This document shows positions 21,311 to 60,932 of a stretch of 64,000 nucleotides of DNA, one piece after another. The position numbers were made by a program, and so were the translations under genes. The notes under the pieces are model-generated. The model was given only the letters and a program-made list of their open reading frames with translations. It was not told the DNA's origin and ran no database searches. The stretch spans positions 1-64,000 of the IMG/VR virus record IMGVR_UViG_3300027759_000067; one strand, written 5' to 3'. The first letter of the stretch is position 1. Every line of letters begins with the position of its first letter. The DNA comes from a virus.

Positions 21311-21312
21311 AA

Positions 21313-21756: not shown

Positions 21757-21764
21757 GTAAGTAT

Positions 21765-22250: not shown

Positions 22251-22261
22251 TAAATAATACT

Positions 22262-22852: not shown

Positions 22853-22854
22853 TT

Positions 22855-38705: not shown

Positions 38706-38893
38706 ACATACCCAAAGAAGGCAGTAAATGGACCAGCATCAACGAAACATTCGTTGTTATCCATACAATTGAATTAGATGGACATACATGGATACACTAT
38801 AGAAAAGAGACCAGCGGACAAGAATATAGTTGCTATGCAGAAAGTTTCTTAGATAGATTTACAGAAATACACAATGAAACAAAAGTTTATTGA
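38702..38893 (+). CDS. Hypothetical protein
   Basis: MNIPKEGSKW...; GAGG RBS and ATGA overlap. Confidence 0.55.
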   Translation: MNIPKEGSKWTSINETFVVIHTIELDGHTWIHYRKETSGQEYSCYAESFLDRFTEIHNETKVY

Positions 38894-47627: not shown

Positions 47628-47875
47628 TAGTCTTCCTGCCTTACTTTGACGACCAGTTCGATCATGTCCTTGCGTTGTTCTTCAGTCATGTCCACCCACA
47701 TCTCCATAGCGGTTGACACTCCAGTCTCCACACCGTCCTGATAGTGTAGGAAGTTGCTGGTCCAGAGTAGGGCAATGATAGCCCAGAACTCCCAGGTGTC
47801 TACATTATGACCCATGGCATACAGGGCGATGCCCAGTGTTACCGCTATGGCTATGCGTTGTAGGTTCTCGTTCAT
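47627..47875 (-). CDS. Small membrane protein
   Basis: Two hydrophobic segments; TAATG coupling. Confidence 0.6.
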   Translation of the reverse strand: MNENLQRIAIAVTLGIALYAMGHNVDTWEFWAIIALLWTSNFLHYQDGVETGVSTAMEMWVDMTEEQRKDMIELVVKVRQED

Positions 47876-48744
47876 TATCGTTTCATACAAGTGGTCTTCA
47901 CCATTGCGGTCCAGTTGTTAGGGAAGCCCTTCTTTAGATCAGCGATCTTCAATACCATACGCAGGCTGAGCTCACGAAGCTTGTCCTGGTTCTGTTCTAC
48001 GAACTCAATGAGCTCGTCCTCTACACAGGCATCAAAGTCGTAGCGTTCCAGCATCTGGCCTTGTTTAACTACCTGTTTGATTCTAAGGATCTTCTCACGT
48101 GCGGTATCCATTTGGAGATCAATGTAGTGGCAGCGGCTTTCCAGGGCATCCAAGTGATCTCTGAGCTTCTTGCTACGTACATGTTCAAACTTGATGTTGG
48201 TGATAAAGATAGCGGCACCCTTGAACTCAAAGCGATCCGGTATGCCTTCTGATCTAAGTATGCGGCTGTCTGTGTTCCAGCTGATGTAGCGGCGGCTACC
48301 ACTGTCCAATGCACCCTTAAGGATGTTCAGGCTAAGGTCTTCCATAAGGATACTATCGCAGTCGTCGAAGACCACAACGTTACCTTCAGCGGAGAACTCG
48401 TAGAGTTTGCTGTAGAGTCCGATGGAGCTCATGGCACCCTTGACCACTTCGAACTTGGGCTTCTTCTCTGCCAAGATGTTGAACAGCTCGGACTTGAGCA
48501 GGACTTTCTCTACTCCGAAGCTTTTGCCAACACCGGGTGGGCCACTGACAATCATAGCACGGATCTGTCCGTCTTTGACTGCCTTGGTCATTTGATCCAG
48601 GATTTCGAAGCGTTCACCCAGACGTTGGTAGATCTCGTCGTCTGTTTCTCTGGCCACAGCGTCTTGGGTACGTTTGATTGCTGCTTCGTCAAACTCTAGT
48701 ACGGTAGCGCCCTTGCTGGGTTTTTGTGCTGCTCTTGTTGCCAT
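47875..48744 (-). CDS. AAA+ ATPase (start ATG 48744)
   Basis: Walker A 'GPPGVGKS', Walker B 'VVVFDDCD', 'FITN', 'ALESRC'; own promoter and AAGGA RBS. Confidence 0.85.
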   Translation of the reverse strand: MATRAAQKPSKGATVLEFDEAAIKRTQDAVARETDDEIYQRLGERFEILDQMTKAVKDGQIRAMIVSGPPGVGKSFGVEKVLLKSELFNILAEKKPKFEVVKGAMSSIGLYSKLYEFSAEGNVVVFDDCDSILMEDLSLNILKGALDSGSRRYISWNTDSRILRSEGIPDRFEFKGAAIFITNIKFEHVRSKKLRDHLDALESRCHYIDLQMDTAREKILRIKQVVKQGQMLERYDFDACVEDELIEFVEQNQDKLRELSLRMVLKIADLKKGFPNNWTAMVKTTCMKR

Positions 48745-48803
48745 AGTGTTCCTTGGTGTGTTTAAAAGTGTATTATAACAGGGACCTAAGTCCCTGTCAA
48801 TGT

Positions 48804-49130
48804 TCAGTCTGCCCGACCGCCTGCGTAGGCTGTGACACCCAGTCGTTCTTTCAGGATCCGAGCGGCAGCTGAGGCACCCGCTTCTTTCACTGACATGCTC
48901 TGGGTACCGTGGCCACTTGGGTTCCACCATTGGAGACCGCCACCGTAGGCTTTGCTGAAGCCTGCTTTAATCAATGCGCGGCCCAGTTTGGTTGAGCCTT
49001 TCTCGTAGACGTTAACCCAAGCAAAGCCGCAGTACCAGTCCTCACCGTGTTGGGTGATGTGGTCTTGTGCGGCTTGGGCAGCGGCTTGTTGGGCTTCTGC
49101 TACAGCGGCGTTGACGATTGCTTGTTCCAT
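48804..49130 (-). CDS. Early hypothetical protein
   Basis: 'CGFAWV' motif; own promoter and RBS. Confidence 0.75.
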   Translation of the reverse strand: MEQAIVNAAVAEAQQAAAQAAQDHITQHGEDWYCGFAWVNVYEKGSTKLGRALIKAGFSKAYGGGLQWWNPSGHGTQSMSVKEAGASAAARILKERLGVTAYAGGRAD

Positions 49131-49190
49131 TTAGTGCTCCTTAGTGTGTAAGTAAGTATTATAACAGGGAGTTGCCTCCCTGTCAACCTT

Positions 49191-49454
49191 TTAGTTGTTG
49201 TTTATTGTGTACAATGCATTATCTAAATATTCTGAGATAATTTGCTTTTTGTAAGTGTTAACAATAGTTTCTTGTAGTGTTTCGCAAGCGCACAATAAGT
49301 TAGTGTCGCTGTCGTCTTCTTCTAGCACATAATTAATAACTTGCAGCATTGTTTTACCCGTACGCACTGCTTCGGCAAATACAATTGCTTCGCAATTGTT
49401 AACGTTGTTATTTACAGCGTGGAATCCGTTTGCAGTTTGTGTTACTTGTAACAT
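49191..49454 (-). CDS. Early hypothetical protein (Pro-free, GA/GG-depleted template)
   Basis: Own promoter and RBS. Confidence 0.75.
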   Translation of the reverse strand: MLQVTQTANGFHAVNNNVNNCEAIVFAEAVRTGKTMLQVINYVLEEDDSDTNLLCACETLQETIVNTYKKQIISEYLDNALYTINNN

Positions 49455-49543
49455 AGTGTTTCCTTTTAGTGTTTAAGTGTGTATTATAACGCTAAAGGGC
49501 TCCGCTGTCAACCTGTGTTGCAAAGCCCTTTCACTTTACTCTA

Positions 49544-49822
49544 CTATTTGTTATAACTTGCGTTAATGCGTAAGTATGTACGCCCCCCGCTCCTAAAACC
49601 CATGCAGCCTGTGTAATTGCTTGTTGTTGCTTTAACTCTGTTAGTAAAGCCCACAAGTGTAAACAAGTCTTGTATCTCTTTTACTAATGCGTGTTTATCC
49701 GCATAGTTAATGTCCCATGTTAGCAAGCGTGTATTATTAACACCTTTGTCTGTGTATTTTGCACTGTCCCCTACAATATTGTTTACAATATTGCGTATTG
49801 CTTGCGTATCCGCTAGTTGCAT
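49544..49822 (-). CDS. Early hypothetical protein (Pro-free, GA/GG-free template)
   Basis: Own promoter and AAGGAG RBS. Confidence 0.75.
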   Translation of the reverse strand: MQLADTQAIRNIVNNIVGDSAKYTDKGVNNTRLLTWDINYADKHALVKEIQDLFTLVGFTNRVKATTSNYTGCMGFRSGGRTYLRINASYNK

Positions 49823-49861
49823 AAAAAGCTCCTTTAGTGTTTAAGTGTGTATTATAGCAGT

Positions 49862-50038
49862 TTAGTCTGCTGTTGTCAAGTCTTTTTGTGTAAAGTTAAA
49901 CAGCTCGTTGTAACAAGCAACCAGCTGCTCGTCTGTCATTTTGTAGCAAGCACTATTAGTGTCGTATTCCATTTTAATATTATACAACATTTCCCAACGT
50001 GTTAGTCCGTTGCTTAATTTACGTTTTGTAAAATACAT
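49862..50038 (-). CDS. Early hypothetical protein (Pro-free, GA/GG-free template)
   Basis: AAGGAG RBS before ATG 50038. Confidence 0.7.
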   Translation of the reverse strand: MYFTKRKLSNGLTRWEMLYNIKMEYDTNSACYKMTDEQLVACYNELFNFTQKDLTTAD

Positions 50039-50048
50039 ATAGTTCTCC

Positions 50049-50339
50049 TTATTTGCAGCAATATTTGTTAGCACTAATTAGTGCGTTATCTTCTATGTAC
50101 AATAGCACACTAATGTAAAATTCGCGTACTAATGTATCTTGCATAATAATTGCGTTATGCAATGCTAGTACATTTTTGTCTGTGTTAAACTGCACTAGTG
50201 CGTTAACGTTATATGCCACGTCCTCTGCAAACATAGTGTCTATGTCCTCTTCGTTAGCAAATACGTTAATATATTCCTCTGTTGTTTTAAGTAATAGCAC
50301 GTTAATTTGTGCAATGTGTTTTGCTGTTAGTTTTTGCAT
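50049..50339 (-). CDS. Early hypothetical protein (Pro-free, GA/GG-free template)
   Basis: Own promoter and AAGGA RBS. Confidence 0.75.
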   Translation of the reverse strand: MQKLTAKHIAQINVLLLKTTEEYINVFANEEDIDTMFAEDVAYNVNALVQFNTDKNVLALHNAIIMQDTLVREFYISVLLYIEDNALISANKYCCK

Positions 50340-50425
50340 ATAGTTCCTTTTTGTTTATGTGTGTATTATAACGCAGAATAGCACACTTGTCAAGTGTGCT
50401 GTTAATAACCCTGCTAGCGGTAAGG

Positions 50426-50596
50426 TTATTTCTTGGTGGCTGGGGCCTGCTGTATCTGAACGCAGGTGCCTTTGAATTGCTGTTTCTGTAGGTCCTGAAG
50501 AGCCGCCTGGCATATGGCCTGCTCCTGGAACTGCCCTATGTAGGTCACGCTGGGTGCTGTGGTTCCTATGCCAATGAGTGCTATTGCCCAGAACAT
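50426..50596 (-). CDS. 56-aa hypothetical protein (not in ORF track)
   Basis: MFWAIALIGIG...ATKK*; GGAGG RBS. Confidence 0.6.
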   Translation of the reverse strand: MFWAIALIGIGTTAPSVTYIGQFQEQAICQAALQDLQKQQFKGTCVQIQQAPATKK

Positions 50597-50597
50597 A

Positions 50598-50816
50598 TCA
50601 CGCCTCCTTCTTGGTTAGGGTGGACTTGAACAGCAGGGCGAACAGGAACTGGAGTCCCCAGGCCTGTAGCCAACCTATCTCTCGTGTGCCCTCTACAGCA
50701 GGTACAAGGCATTGGTTCCACAGTTCCATCACCGGCCAAGCCAGTAGGAAGGATAGGAACAGTAGGGTAGCGATACTGGCTACGATTGCACCTAATGCTA
50801 CGATTGCGTCTTTCAT
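50598..50816 (-). CDS. Small membrane protein
   Basis: Hydrophobic 72 aa; GAGG RBS. Confidence 0.7.
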   Translation of the reverse strand: MKDAIVALGAIVASIATLLFLSFLLAWPVMELWNQCLVPAVEGTREIGWLQAWGLQFLFALLFKSTLTKKEA

Positions 50817-50825
50817 AACAACCTC

Positions 50826-50927
50826 TTACAAAAATGTGTACACAATAGCAATCCCTATAAAGTACAGGAAAAGTGATCCTACTGCTACAATAGCGGCAAA
50901 CTCGAGTGTTTCTTTTAACAGTTGCAT
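50826..50927 (-). CDS. 33-aa membrane peptide (not in ORF track)
   Basis: MQLLKETLEFAAIVAVGSLFLYFIGIAIVYTFL*; AGGAG RBS directly after a promoter. Confidence 0.6.
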   Translation of the reverse strand: MQLLKETLEFAAIVAVGSLFLYFIGIAIVYTFL

Positions 50928-50955
50928 TTCTATCTCCTAAAATTGTATTATAGCA

Positions 50956-51174
50956 TCAAATGCGGAATTGGTCAAGCACTTCTTTAGCCTCGTCTACAGT
51001 GGTGATCTCATCAACGAATGCTGCCAGCATCATTTGGATCAGTGTACGGCACTCGAGTCGTTCTGGCCGGGGCAAGGTAGCGATGAATGCCTCCACTGCC
51101 GCGTATTCCTCAAGACCCCACATAATGTCGCACAGGGCCTTCTGTTTAGCGTTGAGTCCAGTGATAGTGATCAT
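50956..51174 (-). CDS. Early hypothetical protein
   Basis: MITITGLNA...; TAATG-coupled. Confidence 0.65.
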   Translation of the reverse strand: MITITGLNAKQKALCDIMWGLEEYAAVEAFIATLPRPERLECRTLIQMMLAAFVDEITTVDEAKEVLDQFRI

Positions 51175-51263
51175 TACATTCTCCAAAAGTAGATTACAAA
51201 GGGTCCGCCGATTAGGGCTGCGACTGCGGTAGCTTGTGCTAGGTCGATTAGTGCTTGTTTCAT
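51174..51263 (-). CDS. 29-aa leaderless membrane peptide (not in ORF track)
   Basis: ATG 6 nt downstream of a -10 box; MKQALIDLAQATAVAALIGGPFVIYFWRM*. Confidence 0.5.
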   Translation of the reverse strand: MKQALIDLAQATAVAALIGGPFVIYFWRM

Positions 51264-51294
51264 GTATGTATTATAGCCGAGAACTTGGGTCTCG

Positions 51295-51600
51295 TCAACC
51301 TATTTCTAAGACTTTATTCATATCGATGTTGAAGCCGGCAGCATGGACGTAGACTGCTCGTAGTGAAGATTGGGCAAATCGTTGCTCTACCCGTTGTATA
51401 GCCTGGTTCAATGAAGGGGCGCGAACCCGGTATGTATCCTGATTGCCGTCGGCCCACTCTACAGTGACTAGGTGCCAGGTGTTGTTCTCTGCGACTGCAT
51501 ACAGACCGTTGACCAATAGGACCAACACTCCGGTGATGAGTGTCTCACTATGGGCCAGGCTGGACCCTAGCATCAGGGCTAGGATTACGGCCTTCTTCAT
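51295..51600 (-). CDS. Early protein with signal-peptide-like N-terminus
   Basis: MKKAVILALMLGSSLAHS. Confidence 0.6.
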   Translation of the reverse strand: MKKAVILALMLGSSLAHSETLITGVLVLLVNGLYAVAENNTWHLVTVEWADGNQDTYRVRAPSLNQAIQRVEQRFAQSSLRAVYVHAAGFNIDMNKVLEIG

Positions 51601-51818
51601 ACAGCGCCCACCTTTCGGAACAGGTCCATAAAGGCACCGTTGATCTCGTCCATCTCTTCTTGCTCGACATAGAAGTCTGAGCGTGGATCATAGTACTGAC
51701 CTTCCTTGGGATCGTAGTAGAGAACACGTCCGGAGAAGTTGAATGGGCCTTCTAAGCCCTTGCGTGGACCGTAATTGTCACGCATGTTGTCCACAGTGTT
51801 CAAAACGCGATATCCCAT
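51597..51818 (-). CDS. Early hypothetical protein
   Basis: 'GLEGPF...LYYDPKEGQYYDPRSDFY'; own promoter. Confidence 0.75.
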   Translation of the reverse strand: MGYRVLNTVDNMRDNYGPRKGLEGPFNFSGRVLYYDPKEGQYYDPRSDFYVEQEEMDEINGAFMDLFRKVGAV

Positions 51819-51875
51819 CTGGTGCTCCTTAGTGTGTAAGTATGTATTATAGCCTCAGATGGGCTGCTTGTCAAC

Positions 51876-52103
51876 CTATTTTTTGGTAATTTCTTCAAGT
51901 TTCTCTTTGTACTCTAGTTCGGACACTTGCATCAAGTAGACTTCACGCAGAGCATAAACGGTTCCAATCAGGAGCATAGTGACGAAGAATGCCTCACCGC
52001 CGAAGAAGTAGACAAAGGTCAGTGCTGCTAGACCACCGAGCACAGCAGAGCCAAAGAGTTTAGCCACGTGTACAGCGGCCTTTTGTTTCAATGTAAGCAT
52101 CAT
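51876..52103 (-). CDS. Small membrane protein
   Basis: Two hydrophobic helices; own promoter. Confidence 0.7.
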   Translation of the reverse strand: MMLTLKQKAAVHVAKLFGSAVLGGLAALTFVYFFGGEAFFVTMLLIGTVYALREVYLMQVSELEYKEKLEEITKK

Positions 52104-52134
52104 AGTATTTTCCTTTTAAAAATGTATTATAGCA

Positions 52135-52500
52135 TCAAGTTGACACCCGGTCAACCTTAAAATAGCCGTAAGGTAGGCCAACCAGGTAGCACAGGAACTC
52201 GTCGTCCCCATTGCTGCCCTCTGCTTCGTGGATCCAACGCAGGGCCATCTCACGGTCCTTAGCACCGCAGGCTAGGATAGATTGGACACGCATCTCAAAG
52301 GCATGTGCTGCCTCGTGCTCGGCGATCTTGCGTTCTTGATCGTTCTTGACAATCTCGTTCTGCAGGAAGTCAAACTCCCGGTTGAACTTGGACTCATCCC
52401 AGAGGTGTGTGCTGATGCCACGTGGGCGGAAACCGTAGGCATCCTTGTACATATCCCAGAAGATGCTTTGGAGTTCTTCCATGCGGGTCATTGTTTCCAT
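52135..52500 (-). CDS. Early hypothetical protein
   Basis: 'DMYKDAYGFRPR'; GGAG RBS before ATG 52500. Confidence 0.75.
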   Translation of the reverse strand: METMTRMEELQSIFWDMYKDAYGFRPRGISTHLWDESKFNREFDFLQNEIVKNDQERKIAEHEAAHAFEMRVQSILACGAKDREMALRWIHEAEGSNGDDEFLCYLVGLPYGYFKVDRVST

Positions 52501-52573
52501 AGTGTGCTCCAGTGTGTTGCTGTTCATGTGTGTATTATAGCAGGAAACAATGCCCTTGTCAACCAAAGGGTCT

Positions 52574-52807
52574 TTACAGATTCTCACCAGAGATTGTATC
52601 AATGGCACCAGTGTAGACCGCAACGACGCCGTTGCCTTCCTCAAGCCAGCCATTTATGTTCCAGACGTCACGATGTCGATTGTAGGATTCCACCCACATG
52701 AGTGCATCCTCACGGGTGTCGAACTCTTCCTCTCCGAGCACCTTGTGATCATTCACATGACCAGCATAGATAGGGTAGATTTGAACATTGTGTACGATTG
52801 CCATCAT
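52574..52807 (-). CDS. Early hypothetical protein downstream of the structured RNA
   Basis: GGAG RBS. Confidence 0.7.
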   Translation of the reverse strand: MMAIVHNVQIYPIYAGHVNDHKVLGEEEFDTREDALMWVESYNRHRDVWNINGWLEEGNGVVAVYTGAIDTISGENL

Positions 52808-52813
52808 GTGCTC

Positions 52814-53025
52814 CAGTTAGGAAAAAGTTAGAGGAACTTTGCTGATCAATTCTGAGCTAGCTACTCTCAGATCAATCGCCGTCATTACTGCCTGCCTATT
52901 TCGTCTGCTTCTCCTTGCGGATTGCCATCTTGTAAGTGGAGGAGTAGCCTGCTAAGGCGGGGCTCAAACCCATAATCCCATCACTCACCTAACGATGCAG
53001 GTAACCTCTAACTCTTTCCTAACTG
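52814..53025 (-). ncRNA. Candidate structured RNA (~210 nt) closed by a 21-bp stem
   Basis: Arms 53005-53025 and 52814-52834 pair fully on the minus strand (one G-U). It starts just after the -10 at 53037 and contains internal hairpins. Confidence 0.6.
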
Positions 53026-53069
53026 TCTATGCTTGTATTATAACGCACATAGACAGCCTTGTCAACCTT

Positions 53070-53312
53070 TTATTCGTCTCCGCCCCAATCTTTTTTCTCT
53101 CCAAACTCTTCATTGTACTCATAGCCTGCGGTGTAGGCTGTGATCTCCGCTGCTGTCATATCCTTCAAACCAATGCGTGGTGTTGAGTAGGTATCGCCCA
53201 CATAGTAGTGTGGATCATATCTACGATTGTAATGGCTGTCGGCACTGCCGCGATCCCAAGGGCCACCGTGACGTTGATCGTAGTATGCTGAACGTGTTGC
53301 TTCTGCCATCAT
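53070..53312 (-). CDS. Early hypothetical protein
   Basis: 'RHGGPWDRGSADSHY'; own promoter. Confidence 0.75.
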   Translation of the reverse strand: MMAEATRSAYYDQRHGGPWDRGSADSHYNRRYDPHYYVGDTYSTPRIGLKDMTAAEITAYTAGYEYNEEFGEKKDWGGDE

Positions 53313-53496
53313 ATCTCTTGCTCCTAAAATTGTATTATAGCACCGTTTGAATAACCTGTCAACCTCTAAGGTCTTTGGTTGACCAGAATAGGTGAACCTC
53401 GTATACTTTGCGGCATACGAGGTTCTGGGGGTTGCCTGAAGACACTACCCTTCAGGGCTTGTGTCTGCTACGCGACAGCAGACTTTGGAGCGTTCT

Positions 53497-53772
53497 TTAG
53501 ACTAGGCCAAGAGCCATAGCGCGGTAACCAGCTGCAATCAACTTGCGAGTAGGTTGTCCGATTTCGTATTCGGTAACTTGAACGTGGTTGCCAGCGGTAC
53601 GGGTGTTAGCGTACACCGCAAATCCTGCTTGGCGGATACGGCTGACTTCAGCTGAAACGTTCTTGATGCCAAAACGCTTCTCAGCTTGGCTTGCGGTTAC
53701 CTTATCACCACTCTTAAGAGCAGTGAAGAGCTTATGGGTCTTAGTGCCCTGATTGATGTTATAAGTTTGCAT
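53497..53772 (-). CDS. Winged helix-turn-helix DNA-binding protein
   Basis: 'L..ALKSG..VTASQAEKRFGIKNVSAEVSRIRQAG'. Confidence 0.7.
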   Translation of the reverse strand: MQTYNINQGTKTHKLFTALKSGDKVTASQAEKRFGIKNVSAEVSRIRQAGFAVYANTRTAGNHVQVTEYEIGQPTRKLIAAGYRAMALGLV

Positions 53773-53822
53773 TTTTGTTTTCCTTAATGTTATACTGTTT
53801 GCACAGTTACAACAATATTACA

Positions 53823-54125
53823 TTATTCCTTGATGAGAGTCAAGTGATTTTGGAGATCTTTCCTGGCTCGCTCTTTACCTTCTTCCAGGTACTTCTCAAC
53901 ATCCCTTAACGTTTTGGTATTACCAAACTCTCGATCAGTGTAGTACTCAATGAGTCTACGTTGGATCATAGTCAGCAAGTCACCGTTCTCGTCGTCGATG
54001 ATGAAACGTACAGGGCAGCGGCTCCAAGATCTACGTGCTTGGAACTCTGCAAACCACTCACGATGCTGCTTGTTATAAGCATCGAATACAATCCAGGGTC
54101 TACCATAAAAGGCTAATCTACTCAT
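53823..54125 (-). CDS. Early hypothetical protein
   Basis: 'FDAYNKQHR...W..CPVRF'; AAGGAG RBS. Confidence 0.7.
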   Translation of the reverse strand: MSRLAFYGRPWIVFDAYNKQHREWFAEFQARRSWSRCPVRFIIDDENGDLLTMIQRRLIEYYTDREFGNTKTLRDVEKYLEEGKERARKDLQNHLTLIKE

Positions 54126-54231
54126 TGTGTTGCTCCTTAAGTGTCTTAGTTAAACAGAGTACTCATTTCCTTCGTCGCTCGGCACTCTGTTTAACTAAGA
54201 GGGGCATATAGCCCCAATACCCCGCTATGGG

Positions 54232-54624
54232 TTAGAAGGGTGCTTCTTCCAATGTTGCATCAACCTTAGGAGCCTTGGCCTTGGCAGCAACTGCACGGGC
54301 TTTGATAGCATCCATTGTAGGAGTGCTCTTGGCCTTAGGAGCTGCTTTGGCCTTAACAGCCTTAACAGCCCGGACAGCAGGAGTACGCTTCTCCAGGCCT
54401 TCTTCAAGAGCGGCGCGGATGTTAGCGTTGCCGTTGTCGAAGTTGATGCTGATCAGGAACTGGATAGCAGCCGCTTTGGTCATTGGCTCTTTGAGCTCGA
54501 TCAGATCAATGTCGGAACTTCCGGTCTTGGCCAGAACCTTGACACGCATTTGGTCATTAGCAAAGCGAGCCTTGATAACACCATTACGAGTAGAAACACC
54601 TGCAAATTTAAAAGTCTTTTCCAT
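54232..54624 (-). CDS. Protein with Lys/Ala/Pro-rich histone-like tail
   Basis: MEKTFKFAGVS...; C-terminal 'AVKAVKAKAAPKAK'. Confidence 0.7.
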   Translation of the reverse strand: MEKTFKFAGVSTRNGVIKARFANDQMRVKVLAKTGSSDIDLIELKEPMTKAAAIQFLISINFDNGNANIRAALEEGLEKRTPAVRAVKAVKAKAAPKAKSTPTMDAIKARAVAAKAKAPKVDATLEEAPF

Positions 54625-54724
54625 AATATACCTCTTTCTATGTGTGTGTTGTATGGATTGCACTATTGCTTTCCATACGTTAATTATACAACGGTTTGGG
54701 TCCGTTGTCAACCTCTTTTTGGCA

Positions 54725-54907
54725 TTAGGAGTTGAAAGTTTCGTATGGGCTCATCTCCTCTTGTGGGTTTTCTGCCACAAAGTTGCTTTCAATCCAACCA
54801 TAGACGATCTCTATGGGGCACTCCAGTTGAACTGCAATACTGCGGGCACTGAACCCTGCAATGTACATCTGCTCAATATCGTAACTTAGATCTGCCATCT
54901 TACTCAT
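54725..54907 (-). CDS. Early hypothetical protein (small HTH-like)
   Basis: 'GFSARSIAVQLECPIEIVYGW'. Confidence 0.6.
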   Translation of the reverse strand: MSKMADLSYDIEQMYIAGFSARSIAVQLECPIEIVYGWIESNFVAENPQEEMSPYETFNS

Positions 54908-55112
54908 CGTAGGCCTCCTCGCCCATTTCGGTTACTGTTTCTTCAAACACCCGAACATCAACGATGCGGGCTGTTTGTTCCTCATTGCTAACACCTTCAA
55001 ACGCCTCTCGGAAACTTTGGCAATCTGCCAAGAAGTTGAAAACATCCTCTCGGCCCCAAGTGCCCGGCACTTCCAACACCTGTACCAGTTCTGTGCGTAC
55101 TGTGACTTTCAT
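54900..55112 (-). CDS. Early hypothetical protein
   Basis: AAGGA RBS; overlaps neighbours. Confidence 0.65.
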   Translation of the reverse strand: MKVTVRTELVQVLEVPGTWGREDVFNFLADCQSFREAFEGVSNEEQTARIVDVRVFEETVTEMGEEAYDE

Positions 55113-55585
55113 GCTGTTTCCTTTGTTTCAACTAAAGCCAACACCAACAATTCATAAGCAGCATCGTGGCACTTCACATACCAGTTGCCGTCTTTGCGCA
55201 GGATGTACTCGTATTCCTCATACTGGTGATGAGCCAAGTAGTCCTGAAAGTCAACGAACTGCTCTTTGGTCAAGTCTTCGCCACGGTCACGTGCGTAGAA
55301 AGTAGTATAGCCTGCTTCTCTAGCCTTGTCAACTTCTTTCTGGATCTTAGCCTTCTTCACAATGTCAGTCTCATTGTAAGCAGGACCAAAGGGATGCTTC
55401 TTGCCGATGACCTTGCCCAGCGAACTGATGCCGCCCATGTCGATCAAGTCGCGCAGTTTGAACGGATCGCTGTAATGCTCAGCGAGGATCTTGCCGTTGT
55501 GCTCCAAGTAACCGTCCCAGTGGCAGTAGATTTGCTCTACTGTGCCATCTGCAAACTCTAGTGCGATAGTGCTGCGTGTACCCAT
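55109..55585 (-). CDS. Conserved phage early protein
   Basis: 'MGTRS.I....IYCHWDGY...G..L', 'EYEY'; own promoter. Confidence 0.8.
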   Translation of the reverse strand: MGTRSTIALEFADGTVEQIYCHWDGYLEHNGKILAEHYSDPFKLRDLIDMGGISSLGKVIGKKHPFGPAYNETDIVKKAKIQKEVDKAREAGYTTFYARDRGEDLTKEQFVDFQDYLAHHQYEEYEYILRKDGNWYVKCHDAAYELLVLALVETKETA

Positions 55586-55647
55586 TTGCTCTGCTCCTTA
55601 GTGTGTAAGCGTTAATTATAGCACCGAAGTGCTGTCCTGTCAACCAA

Positions 55648-55845
55648 TTAGCGATTGGCAAACTCGCAGTCGGCACCCTCGGGGCCAACCTTCACTTCGT
55701 CATAAAAAACAATCTCATGCCCGAAGTCCTCACCTTCCAACACTGCCATGCGAGCCTTAGCCAGCTCAGCAGTGGGATACACTCCGTAGATGATGCTCTC
55801 AGGAGCGCCACAGTCCTCAGCACGAACAATAAAAATAGAAGTCAT
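55648..55845 (-). CDS. Early hypothetical protein
   Basis: Own promoter and RBS. Confidence 0.7.
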   Translation of the reverse strand: MTSIFIVRAEDCGAPESIIYGVYPTAELAKARMAVLEGEDFGHEIVFYDEVKVGPEGADCEFANR

Positions 55846-55907
55846 TTTGTTTCCTTAGTGTGTGTAAGTGTTAATTATAACAAGGTTTTACCACCTTGTC
55901 AACCTCT

Positions 55908-56192
55908 TTATGCAACGTCTACCCAAATATTGCGACCGTACGTGTTCTCTACAACAAAGCCCGGGCTGCAAGGGCAAGAGCAACCTGCAAACTGCGACCA
56001 TTTTACCTTTGTGTCGGCACTCCAACCCAATTGGCTAAACAACTTGGGCAACACCTCTTTACGGTAGAACGTATGCGGGCGCTGTCGGCGATTCATTATG
56101 TTTTCCATAACTGTCTCGCCCACTGGGCTAACATATATGCGGGTCTTGCTGTAACGACGCTCTTGCTCACCTACTTGTACTGTGATTTCCAT
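55908..56192 (-). CDS. Early hypothetical protein
   Basis: 'WSQFAGCSCPCSPGF'; own promoter. Confidence 0.75.
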   Translation of the reverse strand: MEITVQVGEQERRYSKTRIYVSPVGETVMENIMNRRQRPHTFYRKEVLPKLFSQLGWSADTKVKWSQFAGCSCPCSPGFVVENTYGRNIWVDVA

Positions 56193-56253
56193 TTGCTCTG
56201 CTCCTTAGTGTGTAAGCGTTAATTATACAATGGTTTTACCACTTTGTCAACCG

Positions 56254-56469
56254 TTAAGCATAAAAGGTTGTTGTAAATTCACAACGGCTGTAGATCATTT
56301 CCCGTACTGCGGTGTCGTTGATCTCACCAAATTGATCACTCTTCTGATCGCCGATGAATCGCATAATGCTCATAGTCTGCTTCCAATCAAGCCCTGCAGC
56401 CTTGGCCAGCTCTACAATCTTGTCTGCAACCAAGTTGCCTTGGTCTGTGAACATATCATAATCTTTCAT
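56254..56469 (-). CDS. Early hypothetical protein
   Basis: MKDYDMFTDQGN...; GGAG RBS. Confidence 0.65.
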   Translation of the reverse strand: MKDYDMFTDQGNLVADKIVELAKAAGLDWKQTMSIMRFIGDQKSDQFGEINDTAVREMIYSRCEFTTTFYA

Positions 56470-56470
56470 A

Positions 56471-56743
56471 TCACTCTCCAGTGTAAAGTTCGTAGATGAC
56501 CCGTGCTGCTCCGGGATCCAACTCATTGAGCTGACGGGCAGCAGTGATCAACTTGCGATGACGGGCTTGCAACTCTGCACCACGCAGTTCGCCATCACAG
56601 GTTAGGTTCTCTGGGCTTAGATCGCAGTCAATGGTCTCTGCGATGCGCTGCCGGTCTGTGGCGTTGTCCAGGCTTAGAGGTGCCTGCTTAAAGATGGCAC
56701 GCCACCGGTTCTTCTCGGCAACATAGTTTGTCAATGCGTTCAT
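56471..56743 (-). CDS. Early hypothetical protein
   Basis: 'LSPENLTCDGEL'; own promoter. Confidence 0.75.
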   Translation of the reverse strand: MNALTNYVAEKNRWRAIFKQAPLSLDNATDRQRIAETIDCDLSPENLTCDGELRGAELQARHRKLITAARQLNELDPGAARVIYELYTGE

Positions 56744-56800
56744 GATAGCTCCTTAGTGTGTAAGCGTGTATTATAACAGGGAGTTGCCTCCCTGTCAACC

Positions 56801-57085
56801 TCACATTGAGTGATATCGTTCCATGCTTGGGTCGCATGGGCCACCGCGGTCTTCACGGCGGATCATAACTTCCTTGCCCGTAAGTATGTTCTTTACACCG
56901 ACCAGCTGCTGCCCGTTGAACTTCTCTACGATGTTGATGAACTCTTTCTGCTTGCGTTTGGGCAAGAGGCTGAGCATATCTACTGCCAATTGCGTGGCAT
57001 AGCCTGCTGCGAATGCAGGTTCGTGATCTGCATAAAGTTGACTCAGTGCGTCATTGAGTGCTACTTGGTTGTCTGTACGAAACAT
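56801..57085 (-). CDS. Early hypothetical protein
   Basis: 'VKNILTG....CDPSMERYHSM'; own promoter. Confidence 0.75.
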   Translation of the reverse strand: MFRTDNQVALNDALSQLYADHEPAFAAGYATQLAVDMLSLLPKRKQKEFINIVEKFNGQQLVGVKNILTGKEVMIRREDRGGPCDPSMERYHSM

Positions 57086-57160
57086 TCTAGCTCCTTAGTG
57101 TTTAAGCAGTAATTATACAACGGTTTTACCAACTTGTCAACCCCTAAATCTGTTGTCTTT

Positions 57161-57391
57161 TTACAACGGAAGTGGTACTCCTAATAACCCTATAGCATAT
57201 ATGGCTAATAGTACTGCATTGACAATGACCAAGTTCATCTCCCGTATCCGCATAGCCCAGATCATATACACTAGAGCACCTAGGTTCAATAGCATAATGT
57301 TCAAGGGATCTATACGCAAACTGGTACATAGGGCACCGGCAATGACCAAAGCCATGCCAGTCCACTTCAATATGTTATTAAGCAAGAGCAT
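57161..57391 (-). CDS. Small multi-pass membrane protein
   Basis: Three hydrophobic segments. Confidence 0.7.
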   Translation of the reverse strand: MLLLNNILKWTGMALVIAGALCTSLRIDPLNIMLLNLGALVYMIWAMRIREMNLVIVNAVLLAIYAIGLLGVPLPL

Positions 57392-57749
57392 TCTCCCGAT
57401 CCACTTGCTCGCTCAATGCAGCGAACTTCTTGCTTAGTCGATATACTTGAGCCTTGGCTTCTTTCATAGCCTCGTCAATGAAGTCCTCGGCAGTCCCGTC
57501 ACTAAGGACTTCGCGGGCATCTTCGTATAAGCATCCCCCAAGGTAGGCACTGCCCAACTCGAGCCCTTCGACGAGTACACGTACCCGCAACATGAACCAT
57601 TCGTAGGTCCCGTTGTCAATCTTACGGAGGATCTCGTCGATGTTGTCGTCTTCGAAATGATCCCTGGGGTTAATATCTTCATAGGTCTTATCCACAATTA
57701 CGGTAAAGCCATCACGCTCAAAACGCTCAATTAGATCATAGTGTTGCAT
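57378..57749 (-). CDS. Early hypothetical protein
   Basis: 123 aa, TAATG-coupled. Confidence 0.7.
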   Translation of the reverse strand: MQHYDLIERFERDGFTVIVDKTYEDINPRDHFEDDNIDEILRKIDNGTYEWFMLRVRVLVEGLELGSAYLGGCLYEDAREVLSDGTAEDFIDEAMKEAKAQVYRLSKKFAALSEQVDRENALA

Positions 57750-58036
57750 TATGCCAATTCCTTTTCAGTTAATGTAAGCATATTCGCAGGCACCCTCCAC
57801 AGGCCCATGTTAGTCTTAACTGTGACGAACTTGATAGCAATCTTCTCTACAGTGCCCTGCATGACTCGGCCTGTCTTAGAACTAGTGAAACTGACCTCGT
57901 CGCCGTAGCGTAGGCTTCGCTTGTTCTTCTCCATAAGGCGTGCTCGTGCAAACTTGACAGCATCTATGATCGATGTCAATTCATCGTTGGTAAAGCCGCT
58001 TTGCAAGATTGCGGTGTTGATCTGCGTAATGTTCAT
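57749..58036 (-). CDS. Early protein with SH3/KOW-like C-terminus
   Basis: 'GDEVSF...GTVEKI..KFVTV....WRVP..ML'; own promoter. Confidence 0.7.
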   Translation of the reverse strand: MNITQINTAILQSGFTNDELTSIIDAVKFARARLMEKNKRSLRYGDEVSFTSSKTGRVMQGTVEKIAIKFVTVKTNMGLWRVPANMLTLTEKELA

Positions 58037-58088
58037 CTCATGCTCCTTAGTGTGTAAGTATGTATTATAACGCCGTTAGGCACTCTTG

Positions 58089-58334
58089 TCAACCTAATAC
58101 CACTACACGACGAACGGACTCTAGGTAGTCGCCAGTCTCTTCGTCGTAGCAGTCCTCGTCGTCAACCAGCTTGTCCATGCGGTGGTACTCACTGAACTCT
58201 ACAACACCTTCACTTACCTCGCCTACCTTGGGCGCTACAGTAGTGCGCCAGTGGTCGCCGTAACTGTAGGCAAAGTGTACTTCAGCGTTGGGGTCCAAAT
58301 ACTCTAGCTGCTCTATTAGTTGAAATACTTGCAT
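58089..58334 (-). CDS. Early hypothetical protein
   Basis: Own promoter and RBS. Confidence 0.75.
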   Translation of the reverse strand: MQVFQLIEQLEYLDPNAEVHFAYSYGDHWRTTVAPKVGEVSEGVVEFSEYHRMDKLVDDEDCYDEETGDYLESVRRVVVLG

Positions 58335-58400
58335 GACTGCTCCTTAGTGTGTAAGTGCTAATTATAGCGTGGTTTTACCAATGTGTCAACCAAAGACCCT

Positions 58401-58619
58401 TTAGCAGTCAGGGTCAAAGTCTGCCCACTCTTGCTCTTCATCGGGCTGACCGTCGTAGTCCTCGTCGTCTTCATCAAAACGCTCGCTCAACTCGTTGGCA
58501 TCTAGCAGGTCTTCAACTTCGCTTTCGCTCATGAAAGCGATGCACATGTCAACCACTTGCTCGTGAGTGATAACACCCTGATCTAGCAAGTCGTATAGTC
58601 TCTCTCTAGCTTTAGTCAT
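58401..58619 (-). CDS. Very acidic early protein (possible DNA mimic)
   Basis: 'DEDDEDYDGQPDEEQEWADFDPDC'; own promoter. Confidence 0.7.
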   Translation of the reverse strand: MTKARERLYDLLDQGVITHEQVVDMCIAFMSESEVEDLLDANELSERFDEDDEDYDGQPDEEQEWADFDPDC

Positions 58620-58657
58620 CTCTGCTCCTTAGTGTATGCGTGTATTATAGCAGTCTT

Positions 58658-59008
58658 TTACTGATTTGTCAAGTCACCGCGAATGTCCGTGTTCAGCATA
58701 GGGTTAATCAAACGTCGTAGCTCAACTTCCCGCCGGTGAGCAGCAGCCTTACCACGTATGATCTCATGCACACGGATCTCAATCTCCGACTTGTCAGATA
58801 ACTCACGCAAAGCCACGCACAATGCCCAGTCCTTGTTCTCAGTCTTAGCACGGTAGAAATGCTTGTTAGCACGTACACGCACGCTCTTGAGTACAGTGCT
58901 CTCAGTCTTGGCAGTGACACCAATGTAGTTCATGCCATTGACTACGAGCTCATAGATGATGTGATTGCGATCTACACGTTTCTTGCGAGTGTTAAGTTCT
59001 TTGTTCAT
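58658..59008 (-). CDS. GIY-YIG-like nuclease, leaderless start
   Basis: 'IIYEL...NYIGVT', 'R..KH', 'E..L....P.LN'; ATG 6 nt after a -10 box. Confidence 0.7.
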   Translation of the reverse strand: MNKELNTRKKRVDRNHIIYELVVNGMNYIGVTAKTESTVLKSVRVRANKHFYRAKTENKDWALCVALRELSDKSEIEIRVHEIIRGKAAAHRREVELRRLINPMLNTDIRGDLTNQ

Positions 59009-59749
59009 GTGTGTATTATAGCGTGGTTTTACCATTCTGTCAACCCCATAATGCCTTAAGGGTTATTTGTTGTCTTTTCACCACATTGCCGGCACTCCAC
59101 GCCAGGTTAACATAACGCCAAAAGAAAACCTGATACCCTACTCGGATACCAGGTCTCTTAGTCAGCATACTTAGCAAGTCTCTAGCACACTGCCCGTTCA
59201 GCTTGTTCCAGTATACACTTGTTATACGAGCCTTTACCACCGGAAGTCGTGGTCACTGATTCGACTCAAATAGCGTACAATCTATGACTGTACTCAATAT
59301 AACCATATAAACTGCTTGGCTTCCGGTCCGTTGAGTTTATATCTTATATCTATCTCCAAGTCTACGGTTTCGATATACATTAGACATTGTGGAATTCACT
59401 GTCTACAACAGTTAAGTCTAGTGTATAGTATAACATACTTATAAGGTTTGGACAACACAGTGTAGATCTCGTGTAGTCTATACACAACATTGACAATATA
59501 TAGTGTATAAACTGATGCTAGAATGGAGACCAAACAGGCTCAGAATCGTGGATTTACGGTGGAGAAATGGTCAAAAATCCCAGAAATCCCACCGTTTTGG
59601 CTCAATTTTCACAGTAAATCTACAGTAGATCTATAGTGATTTTAGATTTCTGCATGGTGGGGATGAGAGGCTATCGTACAATACTCCCACCATAGACCAA
59701 AGAAAATCACAGTATAGATCGTTTATTCTTTGGTCTTCCCAGGCCGTTG

Positions 59750-60113: not shown

Positions 60114-60932
60114 ATGGCATTACCATCATTTCCAGGGCCGATAAGCCTAAGTCAACTACAAACTGAGTTTGGAGGTACTAATCCCATAAGACTAGGTGGA
60201 GAGTATCATGCAGGGCAAGGGTTAGTAGCACCTGGGCTCAGTGGATACCCTATTGTTGATGGTGTTAGTACAAAAACATTAATACCCAGTGGCACCACAA
60301 GCAGGATCAGTTTAGGTAATTTCTTTGGAGGGGACGTCACAGAGTTTTATTTTGTAGCAGATTATATAATATTAACCTATTATTTTGCCACTGGATTAGA
60401 TTTAGACACACGTACACGTATGACCAGTCCGTATTCTGCAGGCACATATGTAGGGTGGGGGCAAAGTGGAAGTGGACAAACTCGAGCTGAAGATCTCGCA
60501 TATCCAGAATACAGTCAAGATCTACCCAATGGAGCAATAGCCTTACTATGGGCAGGGGATAACACAAATACAGGGTTAGAATCAGTTCAAATCAACGTAG
60601 CAAATATTCGTTCGTACTATGGTAACACCACCATAAGTCTTGATCTAAGGGCACAATGGTATATGACAGTAGGAACCACGCCGGTAAAAATACAAGCTGA
60701 CCTGTACAAAGGTGGAACCATGGTATATTCCAGTGGGAACTTCACCTGGACCAACCCCACTGCTACCAGCAGTTTATTAGACATTGCTTCGGGAGAAGTT
60801 GCTGCCAGTATCATCAGAGGGCCCACATTTGGTGGCGATCCGGATAATGGGTTCAGTGAGATTGGTACTAGTGTAGCTGTTATGACCTACAACACATTAT
60901 CCGGAGTAGGCCGCTTTGACATGACGGGTTAA
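60114..60932 (+). CDS. Virion/fibre-associated protein
   Basis: 'MALPSFPGPISLSQLQTEFGG.NPI.L..Y', 'ISLGNFFG'; TAAATA box upstream. Confidence 0.65.
   Translation: MALPSFPGPISLSQLQTEFGGTNPIRLGGEYHAGQGLVAPGLSGYPIVDGVSTKTLIPSGTTSRISLGNFFGGDVTEFYFVADYIILTYYFATGLDLDTRTRMTSPYSAGTYVGWGQSGSGQTRAEDLAYPEYSQDLPNGAIALLWAGDNTNTGLESVQINVANIRSYYGNTTISLDLRAQWYMTVGTTPVKIQADLYKGGTMVYSSGNFTWTNPTATSSLLDIASGEVAASIIRGPTFGGDPDNGFSEIGTSVAVMTYNTLSGVGRFDMTG

What the first reader, a model, noticed from the sequence alone, without database searches (positions are those of the whole stretch)
49500..50375. ~875-nt island of early genes whose template strand has zero GA and zero GG (mRNAs lack UC and CC)
Seen: between 49500 and 50375 on the + strand I counted about 150 G residues by hand, and every one is followed by C or T. 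The + strand is the template for three minus-strand genes (49544-49822, 49862-50038, 50049-50339). The first GA appears at 50376, in the promoter spacer upstream of the -10 box and outside that transcript. The fourth gene (49191-49454) has only five exceptions. All four proteins lack Pro, and the three clean genes can use only AGY for Ser, so the constraint shaped protein sequence. Neighbouring early genes contain GA/GG freely, while the shared early leader (ctccttagtgtgtaagt) is also GR-free. Known: 7-deazaguanine (dPreQ0) hypermodification in phage CAjan occurs at GA and GGC motifs. Inference: these genes are written to be expressed despite a sequence-specific DNA or RNA modification or attack. 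One option is that the phage's own G(A/G) modification blocks host RNA polymerase on the template. Another is a host defence that modifies or cleaves GR-DNA or YC-RNA. The four unknown proteins would then be pioneer factors or anti-defence proteins. This is the best candidate here for an undescribed system.
Basis: partly seen in the sequence, partly recalled or inferred. Interest (0 to 1): 0.92.

Follow-up and report, generated by a model that had tools for sequence, protein, structure and literature searches.

The report
Phage early genes written without TC/CC
Three small early genes of an uncultured freshwater giant phage, and their counterparts in dozens of related phages, are kept by selection completely free of the two-letter steps TC and CC on the message strand, so something in the infected cell must read exactly those steps, and what it is remains unknown.

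Summary
On the + strand, 49499-50375 has 148 G and no GA or GG. This is the only such gap in the 89.7-kb contig; the next longest is 138 nt and lies next to it. The mRNA strand therefore has no TC or CC (YC). About 62 are expected from base composition, and about 30 if the proteins are kept and codons resampled.

The gap is one early transcription unit: a sigma70 promoter, genes A, B and C, and a strong terminal stem-loop. Relatives from many lake metagenomes keep it: 46 non-redundant YC-free zones total 28.4 kb, the longest 1,536 nt. Gene copies that have diverged to 40-58 % nucleotide identity still have none.

Selection maintains it. Among close relatives, 2 of 78 C/T differences lie after a pyrimidine, against 23 expected. 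TT and CT are not in excess, so this is not a deamination footprint. Exact zeros are eight times the Poisson expectation, which suggests every single site counts.

My best reading (0.42) is immunity of these messages to an unidentified YC-specific, single-hit agent acting on RNA.

This scan has noted the same pattern in other phage genomes. I found no published description.

The parts
49499..50375 (.). Zone with no GA/GG on the + strand, which means no TC/CC on the minus (mRNA) strand
   Evidence: 878-nt gap, unique in the 89.7-kb contig.
50365..50393 (-). Promoter of unit A-B-C (TTGACA 50393-50388, 17-nt spacer, TATAAT 50370-50365). The last YC (TTC in the spacer) lies at about -18.
   Evidence: The boundary at -18 recurs in the close relatives.
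50049..50339 (-). Gene A, 96 aa, helical bundle, conserved C-terminal CC, no Pro, 0 YC
   Evidence: 56 metagenomic homologues; pLDDT 89; no fold match.
49862..50038 (-). Gene B, 58 aa from the ATG (70 aa from an upstream GTG), no Pro, 0 YC
   Evidence: family of 10, all with 0 YC.
49851..49879 (-). Internal perfect promoter with a weak stem-loop whose two arms are both YC-free
   Evidence: -5.7 kcal/mol.
49544..49822 (-). Gene C, 92 aa, small alpha/beta protein, no Pro, 0 YC
   Evidence: family down to 21 % identity; pLDDT 83; no fold match.
49483..49531 (-). Strong stem-loop that closes unit A-B-C (arms 49524-49531 and 49494-49501). The promoter of gene D (49511-49483) is embedded in it. Its 3' arm AGCCC carries the first YC after the zone.
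   Evidence: -24.2 kcal/mol, z -5.0.
49191..49454 (-). Gene D, 87 aa, no Pro, own promoter, partly depleted (5 YC against 10.9 expected)
49158..49186 (-). Promoter-plus-stem-loop cassette that closes unit D and starts the next gene, which has normal YC content
   Evidence: -17.5 kcal/mol.
48772..59043 (-). Context: an array of about 24 perfect sigma70 promoters, many with a stem-loop in the spacer (PeSL-type early cassettes). Only the units above are YC-depleted.
   Evidence: PMC2839356 and PMC4122927 for PeSLs.

Best explanation
Unit A-B-C (and, more weakly, gene D) is written so that its transcript contains no 5'-YC-3' in any single-stranded part. Purifying selection keeps it so, site by site. 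The most likely reason is that an agent in the infected cell acts on YC in single-stranded RNA, and one hit is enough to inactivate a message. The agent could be an endoribonuclease or an RNA-modifying enzyme such as an ADP-ribosyltransferase or a deaminase. It could belong to a host defence or to the phage's own shut-off of host and early messages. Messages without YC are the only ones it cannot touch, so the small proteins A-C (function unknown; plausibly take-over or counter-defence factors) can still be made while it is active. Shown here: the ban exists, it is strand-specific, it coincides with a transcription unit, it is conserved, and selection maintains it. The agent itself is not identified.
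For: (1) The ban covers all three codon phases, the untranslated leaders and the intergenic spacers, so it acts on nucleic acid and not on codons or tRNAs. (2) It starts at or upstream of the transcription start: at about -18, or at -47 to -67 in the upstream terminator arm. It ends at the next stem-loop with a T-run in 26 of 43 zones, against 26 % of control YC sites. The only YC inside the transcript lie in the paired arm of the closing stem-loop. (3) Conservation: there are 46 non-redundant YC-free zones totalling 28.4 kb, the longest 1,536 nt. Five gene families keep many members at exactly 0 YC while diverging to 40-58 % nucleotide identity, although one random substitution in four would create a YC. 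(4) Ongoing selection: among relatives at 85 % identity or more, the island has 76 C/T differences after a purine and 2 after a pyrimidine, where 23 are expected. (5) Single-hit logic: of 941 distinct ORFs, 90 have exactly 0 YC. The Poisson expectation among low-density genes is 11, and the main peak is at 8-9 per 100 nt. An attractor at exactly zero is expected if the first site costs most. (6) C itself is kept (17-18 %, all as AC or GC), and no other 3-mer or 4-mer is banned, so the motif really is Y followed by C. (7) Agents that read a dinucleotide in single-stranded nucleic acid exist: CmdT (GA in ssRNA, PMC11618068), Can2 (CA) and CARD1 (T-G/A) (PMC10783487). T4 has its own sequence-specific early-mRNA nuclease, RegB (PMC2988021). 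(8) Metatranscriptome contigs from several studies cover the island, and their variants stay GR-free on the + strand.
Against: No enzyme with YC specificity on RNA is known, and none was found in the 25 % of the genome at hand. Intermediate densities are common (gene D has 5 YC; about 160 ORFs have 0-4 per 100 nt), so the effect is not strictly all-or-none. Sequence alone cannot separate a reader of RNA from a reader of the displaced coding DNA strand or of the template strand. Ribosomal and transfer RNAs would have to survive such an agent for the immune messages to be translated.
Confidence: 0.42

Rival explanations
1. Rho evasion. Host termination factor Rho loads onto nascent RNA through primary binding clefts that each hold a 5'-YC dinucleotide. 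A transcript without YC offers it nothing to bind, so the unit is immune to Rho-dependent termination and polarity even when translation falters.
For: Rho is the only known factor whose specificity is exactly Y then C on single-stranded RNA (PMC12360218; PMC6144790, where YC content and spaced YC dimers rank among the best predictors). It is near-universal in bacteria. YC in paired stems would be tolerated, as seen here. Rho restricts T4 transcription to immediate-early RNA in vitro (PMC2988021). The unit is polycistronic.
Against: Rho needs several suitably spaced YC, so the last few sites should be nearly neutral. Yet exact zeros are 8 times over-represented, and new YC are purged even among close relatives. 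G-rich sequence counteracts Rho, but G is lower in the island (20 % against 26 %). The genes have strong Shine-Dalgarno sites and gaps of 10-39 nt, so ribosomes should already shield them. Longer early units in the same array, such as the one from the promoter at 48800, have normal YC.
Confidence: 0.22
2. Template-strand guanine modification or lesion. G in 5'-GR-3' on DNA is modified, either by the phage (a DpdA-type 7-deazaguanine exchange) or by a host enzyme. This hinders host RNA polymerase when it lies on the template, and the clean units are the ones that can be read at once.
For: Motif-specific G modification exists in phages (CAjan: GA and GGC, PMC7544227). The ban sits on the template strand and begins at the promoter. 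Earlier notes of this scan report relatives in which GA, GG, TC and CC are all banned on one strand, which would suit a DNA-step reader (not seen in my loci).
Against: No TGT/DpdA, QueC or FolE was found in this contig or in the related viral records searched. One weak QueC-like PP-loop protein beside a radical-SAM gene turned up in a single relative. About twenty other early units with identical promoters have normal GR. Closing stem-loops carry GGG or GA on the template. In these loci there is no specific GR ban on the coding strand: TG is reduced more than GA or GG, and stretches free of both GR and YC reach at most 107 nt. 7-Deazaguanines sit in the major groove and pair normally (my own knowledge).
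Confidence: 0.12
3. Attack on the displaced coding DNA strand. In the transcription bubbles of very strongly transcribed early genes the non-template strand is single-stranded. A YC-preferring ssDNA enzyme would then hit TC/CC there. Candidates are a cytosine deaminase of the TC/CC-preferring kind, a dC-specific nuclease like T4 endonuclease IV (prefers 5'-TCA-3', PMC1635256), or a DarT2-like ADP-ribosyltransferase (TNTC, PMC11543638).
For: It explains both the strand specificity and the restriction to transcribed DNA. In flanking genes, C/T differences after a pyrimidine are 1.5 times as frequent per site as after a purine, with no such bias for the complementary context (weak, z about 2.2, and possibly confounded by codon position).
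Against: The other early units have equally perfect promoters and are not protected. Damage anywhere in the genome would be as harmful. TT and CT are not in excess in YC-free genes, so there is no C-to-T flux signature. DarT2 and EndoIV would explain TC but not CC.
Confidence: 0.1
4. Pure mutational footprint: one-off or continuous hypermutation at YC, without selection for a YC-free message.
For: GG to AG and GA to AA on the + strand is the classical deaminase signature, and the zone is AT-richer than its flanks.
Against: The reading frames are intact and the proteins conserved. The product dinucleotides TT and CT are below, not above, expectation. The state persists through sequence divergence to 40 % identity in many lineages. 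The boundaries follow promoters and terminators.
Confidence: 0.02

Closest known systems
Rho utilisation (rut) sites and Rho's primary binding site
   Same: Identical motif: 5'-YC-3' (UC or CC) read on single-stranded nascent RNA. Structured RNA is exempt. Rho is relevant to early transcription in T4-type phages (PMC12360218, PMC6144790, PMC2988021).
   Different: Rho binds several spaced YC cooperatively. Here every single YC is purged, C as such is retained, and G is not raised. No phage is described as escaping Rho by writing YC-free messages; known phage answers are proteins such as lambda N and Q and P4 Psu.
CmdTAC defence (CmdT ADP-ribosylates adenine in GA dinucleotides of single-stranded RNA; PMC11618068)
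   Same: An anti-phage effector that reads a bare dinucleotide in mRNA, blocks translation with single hits, and acts against T4-type phages. This is the kind of agent that would select for dinucleotide-free messages.
   Different: The motif is GA, not YC. No ADP-ribosyltransferase was found here.
Single-strand nucleases with dinucleotide preference in type III CRISPR immunity (Can2: CA; CARD1: T-G/A; PMC10783487)
   Same: Defence nucleases that cut ssRNA and ssDNA with a two-base preference.
   Different: Their motifs differ and their preference is relative, not absolute. CA is actually enriched in the island.
T4 weapons that discriminate by sequence or base: RegB (cuts early mRNAs, often in the Shine-Dalgarno sequence), Alc (terminates transcription on dC-DNA at discrete sites), endonuclease IV (ssDNA, 5'-TCA-3') (PMC2988021, PMC1635256)
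   Same: Phage-encoded agents of T4-type phages that spare some templates or messages and destroy others. Endonuclease IV reads T before C.
   Different: T4 protects itself by modifying all its cytosines, not by avoiding a motif. No RegB, Alc or denB homologue was recognised in the available sequence.
Motif-specific 7-deazaguanine DNA modification (DpdA; CAjan: GA and GGC; PMC7544227)
   Same: It concerns G followed by A (or G) in phage DNA.
   Different: It modifies both strands genome-wide to block restriction and is not known to hinder transcription. The motif is not GR, and no pathway gene was found here.
PeSL promoter-early stem-loop cassettes of T4-type phages (PMC2839356, PMC4122927)
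   Same: The island lies in such an array: strong early sigma70 promoters combined with stem-loops flank small, variable genes.
   Different: PeSLs explain the modular layout, not the dinucleotide ban. No compositional ban is described for them.
Dinucleotide avoidance in eukaryotic viruses (CpG and ZAP, UpA and RNase L, TC and APOBEC3); my own knowledge
   Same: A virus removes a dinucleotide that a host factor reads.
   Different: Those depletions are partial and genome-wide. This one is absolute, strand-specific and confined to single transcription units of a phage.

Membership tests
PeSL-type early cassette array (T4-type phages) | Near-consensus sigma70 early promoter in front of each small gene or short operon | tested here: met
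   about 24 perfect TTGACA-N17-TATAAT promoters on the minus strand at 48800-59043, four of them in 49158-50393.
PeSL-type early cassette array (T4-type phages) | Stem-loop combined with the promoter, acting as terminator for the upstream unit | tested here: met
   stem-loops of -24.2, -17.5 and -18 kcal/mol overlap the promoters at 49511, 49186 and 50393. Termination itself was not tested.
Rho-resistant (rut-less) transcript | Absence of spaced 5'-YC dimers in single-stranded RNA | tested here: met
   0 YC in 877 nt. The only YC in the transcript lie in the paired arm of the closing stem-loop.
Rho-resistant (rut-less) transcript | Composition that disfavours Rho (C below G, G-rich, structured) | tested here: inconclusive
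   C 17.9 % is below G 20.2 %, but the flanks also have C below G, and G is lower in the island than in the flanks.
Rho-resistant (rut-less) transcript | Termination or expression that depends on Rho when YC is restored | not testable with these tools
   Needs in vitro transcription with Rho, or bicyclomycin or rho mutants.
DpdA / 7-deazaguanine DNA modification system | DpdA (TGT-family transglycosylase) gene in the phage | tested here: inconclusive
   no PF01702 match in this contig (about 25 % of the genome) or in nine related viral records (2-31 % complete each).
DpdA / 7-deazaguanine DNA modification system | preQ0 synthesis genes (FolE, QueD, QueE, QueC) | tested here: inconclusive
   no FolE. 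One weak QueC-like PP-loop ORF (E=1e-5) lies beside a radical-SAM gene in one relative (L099). QueD and QueE were not searched.
DpdA / 7-deazaguanine DNA modification system | Modified G present in virion DNA | not testable with these tools
   Needs LC-MS/MS or nanopore/SMRT analysis of virion DNA. The phage is uncultured.
CmdT-type mRNA ADP-ribosylation target avoidance | Avoidance of GA in the message | tested here: not met
   the mRNA strand has 42 GA and 35 GG in the zone; the reduction of GA/GG is no greater than that of TG.
Deaminase (APOBEC-like) hypermutation footprint | Excess of the product dinucleotides (TT and CT on the edited strand), damaged reading frames, not conserved | tested here: not met
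   TT and CT are below expectation (z -6.9 and -3.4). The ORFs are intact and conserved.
DarT2-type ssDNA ADP-ribosylation target avoidance | The motif TNTC is the unit avoided | tested here: not met
   CC is banned as strictly as TC, and TC is banned whatever lies two bases upstream. Motif from PMC11543638.

The most novel reading that the evidence does not exclude
Cells infected by this clade of giant phages contain an undescribed agent that recognises the bare dinucleotide 5'-YC-3' in single-stranded RNA (or in the displaced coding DNA strand) and inactivates a message with one hit. It could be a new class of defence effector or a phage shut-off enzyme. The YC-free cassettes would then be a dedicated immune expression channel for the phage's first-line take-over or counter-defence proteins. 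This would define a new form of phage-host conflict fought at the level of dinucleotide composition.
Probability: 0.45. Interest if true: 0.92.

Novelty: new variant of a known kind. Interest (0 to 1): 0.82.

Why it matters
An absolute, strand-specific ban on a dinucleotide is one of the strongest footprints selection can leave. This one strips proline from the proteins and persists through saturating divergence. It says that a factor with exactly this specificity acts in infected cells, yet none is known except Rho, whose cooperative binding fits poorly. The island also marks a small set of unknown proteins (families A-D and at least four more) as the ones the phage most needs to express. That makes them prime candidates for counter-defence or take-over functions. 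As a practical matter, YC-free coding could serve as a design rule for protected messages. The test is direct: recode the genes synonymously and measure.

Tried and rejected
1. DNA and protein searches of the island against 50,697 phage records found nothing. Relatives exist only in metagenomes.

I used the search for related loci instead.

3. The four island proteins have no significant PHROG hit. AlphaFold models of A (pLDDT 89) and C (pLDDT 83) have no significant structural match in PDB (both) or, for C, in BFVD.

4. Pfam scans of 39 further ORFs found replication, recombination and structural genes, methyltransferases, a dCMP-deaminase-like protein and an HNH nuclease. They found no recognisable RNase, ADP-ribosyltransferase or DNA-modification pathway.

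5. A GR ban on the coding strand, reported for other genomes in earlier notes, is not present here. Stretches free of both GR and YC reach at most 107 nt, and the lower GA/GG is part of a general loss of G.

6. No other 3-mer or 4-mer is absent from 28.4 kb of pooled YC-free zones.

7. CRISPR PAM avoidance (CC, TTC) was considered and rejected. Interference works on both strands and anywhere in the genome, so a one-strand, 1-kb ban gives no protection.

8. A codon- or tRNA-level explanation was rejected because codon junctions and untranslated parts obey the ban.

9. DarT1 was considered for G on ssDNA, but it has no consensus motif (PMC11543638).

10. Laying metatranscriptome contigs shows presence only. 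Depth, transcript ends and editing cannot be read from contigs, and uncovered parts mean nothing.

11. The 320-kb relative (contig behind L067) could not be searched whole.

Full report
**1.

On the + strand, 49500-50375 contains 148 G, all followed by C (52) or T (96). The GA/GG-free gap runs from 49499 to 50375 (878 nt). It is the only one of its kind in the whole 89,707-bp contig. The next gaps are 138 nt (adjacent, inside gene D) and 96 nt. The mirror class (TC/CC on the + strand) never leaves more than 119 nt free.

Gene D (49191-49454) has exactly five exceptions, and the flanking early genes have 10-30 GA/GG per 200 nt.

Read on the message strand, the statement is that no C is preceded by a pyrimidine: no TC and no CC ("YC").

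Base composition predicts 62 YC in the zone. Keeping the proteins and resampling synonymous codons with the genome's usage predicts 11.5, 5.8 and 13.2 for genes A, B and C (observed 0, 0, 0), and 10.9 for D (observed 5). None of the four proteins has a proline, against a genome mean of 4.1 %.

**2. What the genome is.**

The contig is a fragment of an uncultured myovirus; CheckV puts it at about 25 % of the genome. Its tail sheath is 43 % identical to those of 280-490-kb jumbo phages such as PA5oct. It carries UvsX/RecA, helicases, primase, ligase and a dCMP-deaminase-like gene.

Positions 48800-59043 (minus strand) hold about 24 perfect TTGACA-N17-TATAAT promoters, many with a stem-loop in or around the spacer. 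This is the PeSL layout described for T4-type phages (PMC2839356, PMC4122927).

Only two units of this array are depleted. The first runs from the promoter at 50393 through genes A, B and C, with an internal promoter at 49879. The second, more weakly depleted, runs from the promoter at 49511 through gene D.

The island is AT-richer than its flanks (35-40 % GC against about 50 %).

**3. The ban follows the transcription unit.**

The last YC upstream is a TTC in the promoter spacer, about 18 nt before the start site. The first YC downstream is the CCC in the 3' arm of a strong stem-loop (-24.2 kcal/mol, z -5.0) that closes unit A-B-C. The internal promoter's weak stem-loop is built without YC on either arm.

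The same holds across relatives:
- The 5' boundary lies at -18, or at -47 to -67 in the upstream terminator arm. It is almost never inside the transcript.
- The 3' boundary coincides with a paired segment followed by a T-run in 26 of 43 zones, against 26 % of random YC sites.

Leaders, spacers and all three codon phases obey the ban. The constraint therefore acts on nucleic acid, not on codons.

**4. It is conserved and selected.**

The island proteins have no match in phage records or PHROGs. Gene A, however, has 56 metagenomic homologues. I fetched 98 related loci, of which 74 are non-duplicate.

In these loci the strand that encodes the homologues carries YC-free stretches of up to 1,536 nt (L062), with others of 1,342, 1,290, 1,241 and 1,185 nt. 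The background is 7-10 YC per 100 nt. Pooled and made non-redundant, 46 zones total 28.4 kb with no YC, and no other 3-mer or 4-mer is banned. Across all loci the longest YC gap is 1,536 nt, whereas nine other dinucleotide classes give 79-215 nt.

The property belongs to specific gene families. Families A, B, C and D, plus families of about 123, 51, 83, 55 and 60 residues, are depleted in many lineages. Flanking families always have normal content.

Members with exactly zero YC have diverged to 40-58 % nucleotide identity, although one random substitution in four would create a YC. Among close relatives (85 % identity or more), the island shows 76 C/T differences after a purine and 2 after a pyrimidine, where 23 are expected. 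Purging is therefore ongoing.

This is not a deamination footprint. In YC-free genes the product dinucleotides TT and CT are below expectation, and the frames are intact and conserved.

A few homologue loci (L012, L013, L034, L080, L096) have normal YC, so the state can be lost or was never gained there.

**5. Shape of the constraint.**

Of 941 distinct ORFs in families with five or more members, 90 have exactly 0 YC. A flat shoulder of 30-47 ORFs per bin fills 0-6 per 100 nt, and the main peak is at 8-9. Among low-density genes, exact zeros are eight times the Poisson expectation (90 against 11).

An attractor at exactly zero is what one expects if the first site costs the most, that is, if one hit inactivates the molecule. 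It is the opposite of what a cooperative, multi-site binder predicts.

C itself is retained (17-18 %) but only as AC or GC. So the 5' neighbour is read sharply.

**6. Candidate readers.**

(a) **Rho.** Its primary binding clefts hold 5'-YC (PMC12360218), and YC dimers rank among the best predictors of Rho-dependent terminators (PMC6144790). Rho limits T4 transcription to immediate-early RNA in vitro (PMC2988021). The motif match is exact, and paired YC would be exempt. Four points count against it:
- Rho's multi-site binding makes the last few YC nearly neutral.
- G is lowered, not raised.
- The genes are tightly translated.
- Longer units in the same array are unprotected.

(b) **An unidentified single-hit agent on RNA.** Dinucleotide-reading effectors exist: CmdT at GA in ssRNA (PMC11618068), Can2 at CA and CARD1 at T-G/A (PMC10783487). 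T4 itself has a sequence-specific early-mRNA nuclease, RegB (PMC2988021). Cytidine ADP-ribosylation has been described (PMC12945103). None of these has YC specificity, and CmdT is excluded because the message keeps 77 GA/GG.

CAjan does modify GA and GGC (PMC7544227). I found no TGT/DpdA in this contig or in nine related viral records, and no QueC or FolE in this contig or four of them. The one exception is a weak QueC-like PP-loop ORF in a single relative. All these records are fragments, so the result is inconclusive. Against the idea:
- Twenty sister units with the same promoters carry normal GR.
- The closing stem-loops have GGG or GA on the template.
- There is no specific GR ban on the coding strand here.

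(d) **Attack on the displaced coding DNA strand** by a deaminase, a nuclease like T4 endonuclease IV (5'-TCA-3', PMC1635256) or DarT2 (TNTC, PMC11543638). This explains the strand bias. It does not explain why equally strongly transcribed neighbours are spared, nor, for the last two, why CC is banned.

I rank (b) 0.42, (a) 0.22, (c) 0.12, (d) 0.10, and a pure mutational origin 0.02.

**7. The proteins.**

A is a five-helix bundle with an invariant C-terminal Cys-Cys. C is a small alpha/beta protein. Neither has a structural relative at a significant score. Other island families are small and acidic.

Metatranscriptome contigs from several studies cover parts of the island, and their variants keep the + strand GR-free. 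This shows presence in RNA libraries only.

**8. Novelty.**

My literature searches found no description of such a ban. Earlier notes of this same scan report the pattern in at least six other phage genomes. Some of those have all four of GA, GG, TC and CC banned, which I could not reproduce in this clade.

In kind, this is motif avoidance by a virus, which is known. In form it is new: absolute, strand-specific, limited to single transcription units, at the level of a dinucleotide, and with an unknown reader.

Noticed in passing
window 48772-59043 (minus strand): About 24 perfect TTGACA-N17-TATAAT promoters, nearly one per small gene, many with a stem-loop inside the 17-nt spacer (for example CAGGGAGGCAACTCCCTG at 49186 and again at 56798). 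This is a very dense PeSL-type early cassette array.
   Followed up: partly
window 38874-39302 (+): A 142-aa zinc deaminase (dCMP_cyt_deam_1, E=6e-22, with weaker MafB19 and APOBEC-like cross-hits). It is most likely a dCMP deaminase for dTTP supply. Its substrate was not tested, and it is the only cytosine deaminase fold in the contig.
   Followed up: no
contig 85279-86202 (L101:2279-3202, +), outside the window: A phage-borne TctC/Bug-family periplasmic solute-binding protein (E=5e-26). The family is greatly expanded in Burkholderiales, which hints at the host group or at an auxiliary metabolic gene.
   Followed up: no
window 9348-10712 (-) and 14403-17492 (+): Two different tail-sheath-like genes (454 aa and 1,029 aa) in one structural module.
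   Followed up: no
window 6303-8147 (+), 60929-61588 (-); L101:256-1008 (+): Three SAM-methyltransferase-domain proteins, one of them 614 aa with a PHROG 'DNA methyltransferase' hit. Their targets are unknown, and they could bear on DNA or RNA modification.
   Followed up: no
L099 (related viral record G004, 20240-23407): A QueC-like PP-loop ATPase (206 aa, E=1e-5) lies next to a 359-aa radical-SAM-like protein in a relative that also has a 1,185-nt YC-free zone. This is a possible nucleoside-modification pair.
   Followed up: partly
L094 5288-5474; L075, L083, L079, L069, L086 (about 140 nt each): In some relatives the coding strand just upstream of and into gene A has GA/GG-free stretches of 140-188 nt. 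These are longer than elsewhere (typical maximum 80-110 nt), but far from the all-four-dinucleotide bans noted for other genomes.
   Followed up: partly
contig 78011-79015 and 73281-77963 (L100), outside the window: A papain-family cysteine protease sits next to a 1,560-aa protein with PA14/GLEYA and endosialidase-like domains. A 1,377-aa protein with an Mtd-like N-terminus and beta-propeller repeats follows. These are probably host-recognition fibres.
   Followed up: no
window 47875-48930 (-): A conserved AAA-type ATPase (PHROG 1250; T4 nrdC.10-like; 46 % identical to PA5oct-group proteins that are variously mis-annotated as 'thioredoxin'). The long ORF overlaps the upstream gene, and the real start is probably the ATG just after the promoter at 48800.
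   Followed up: no
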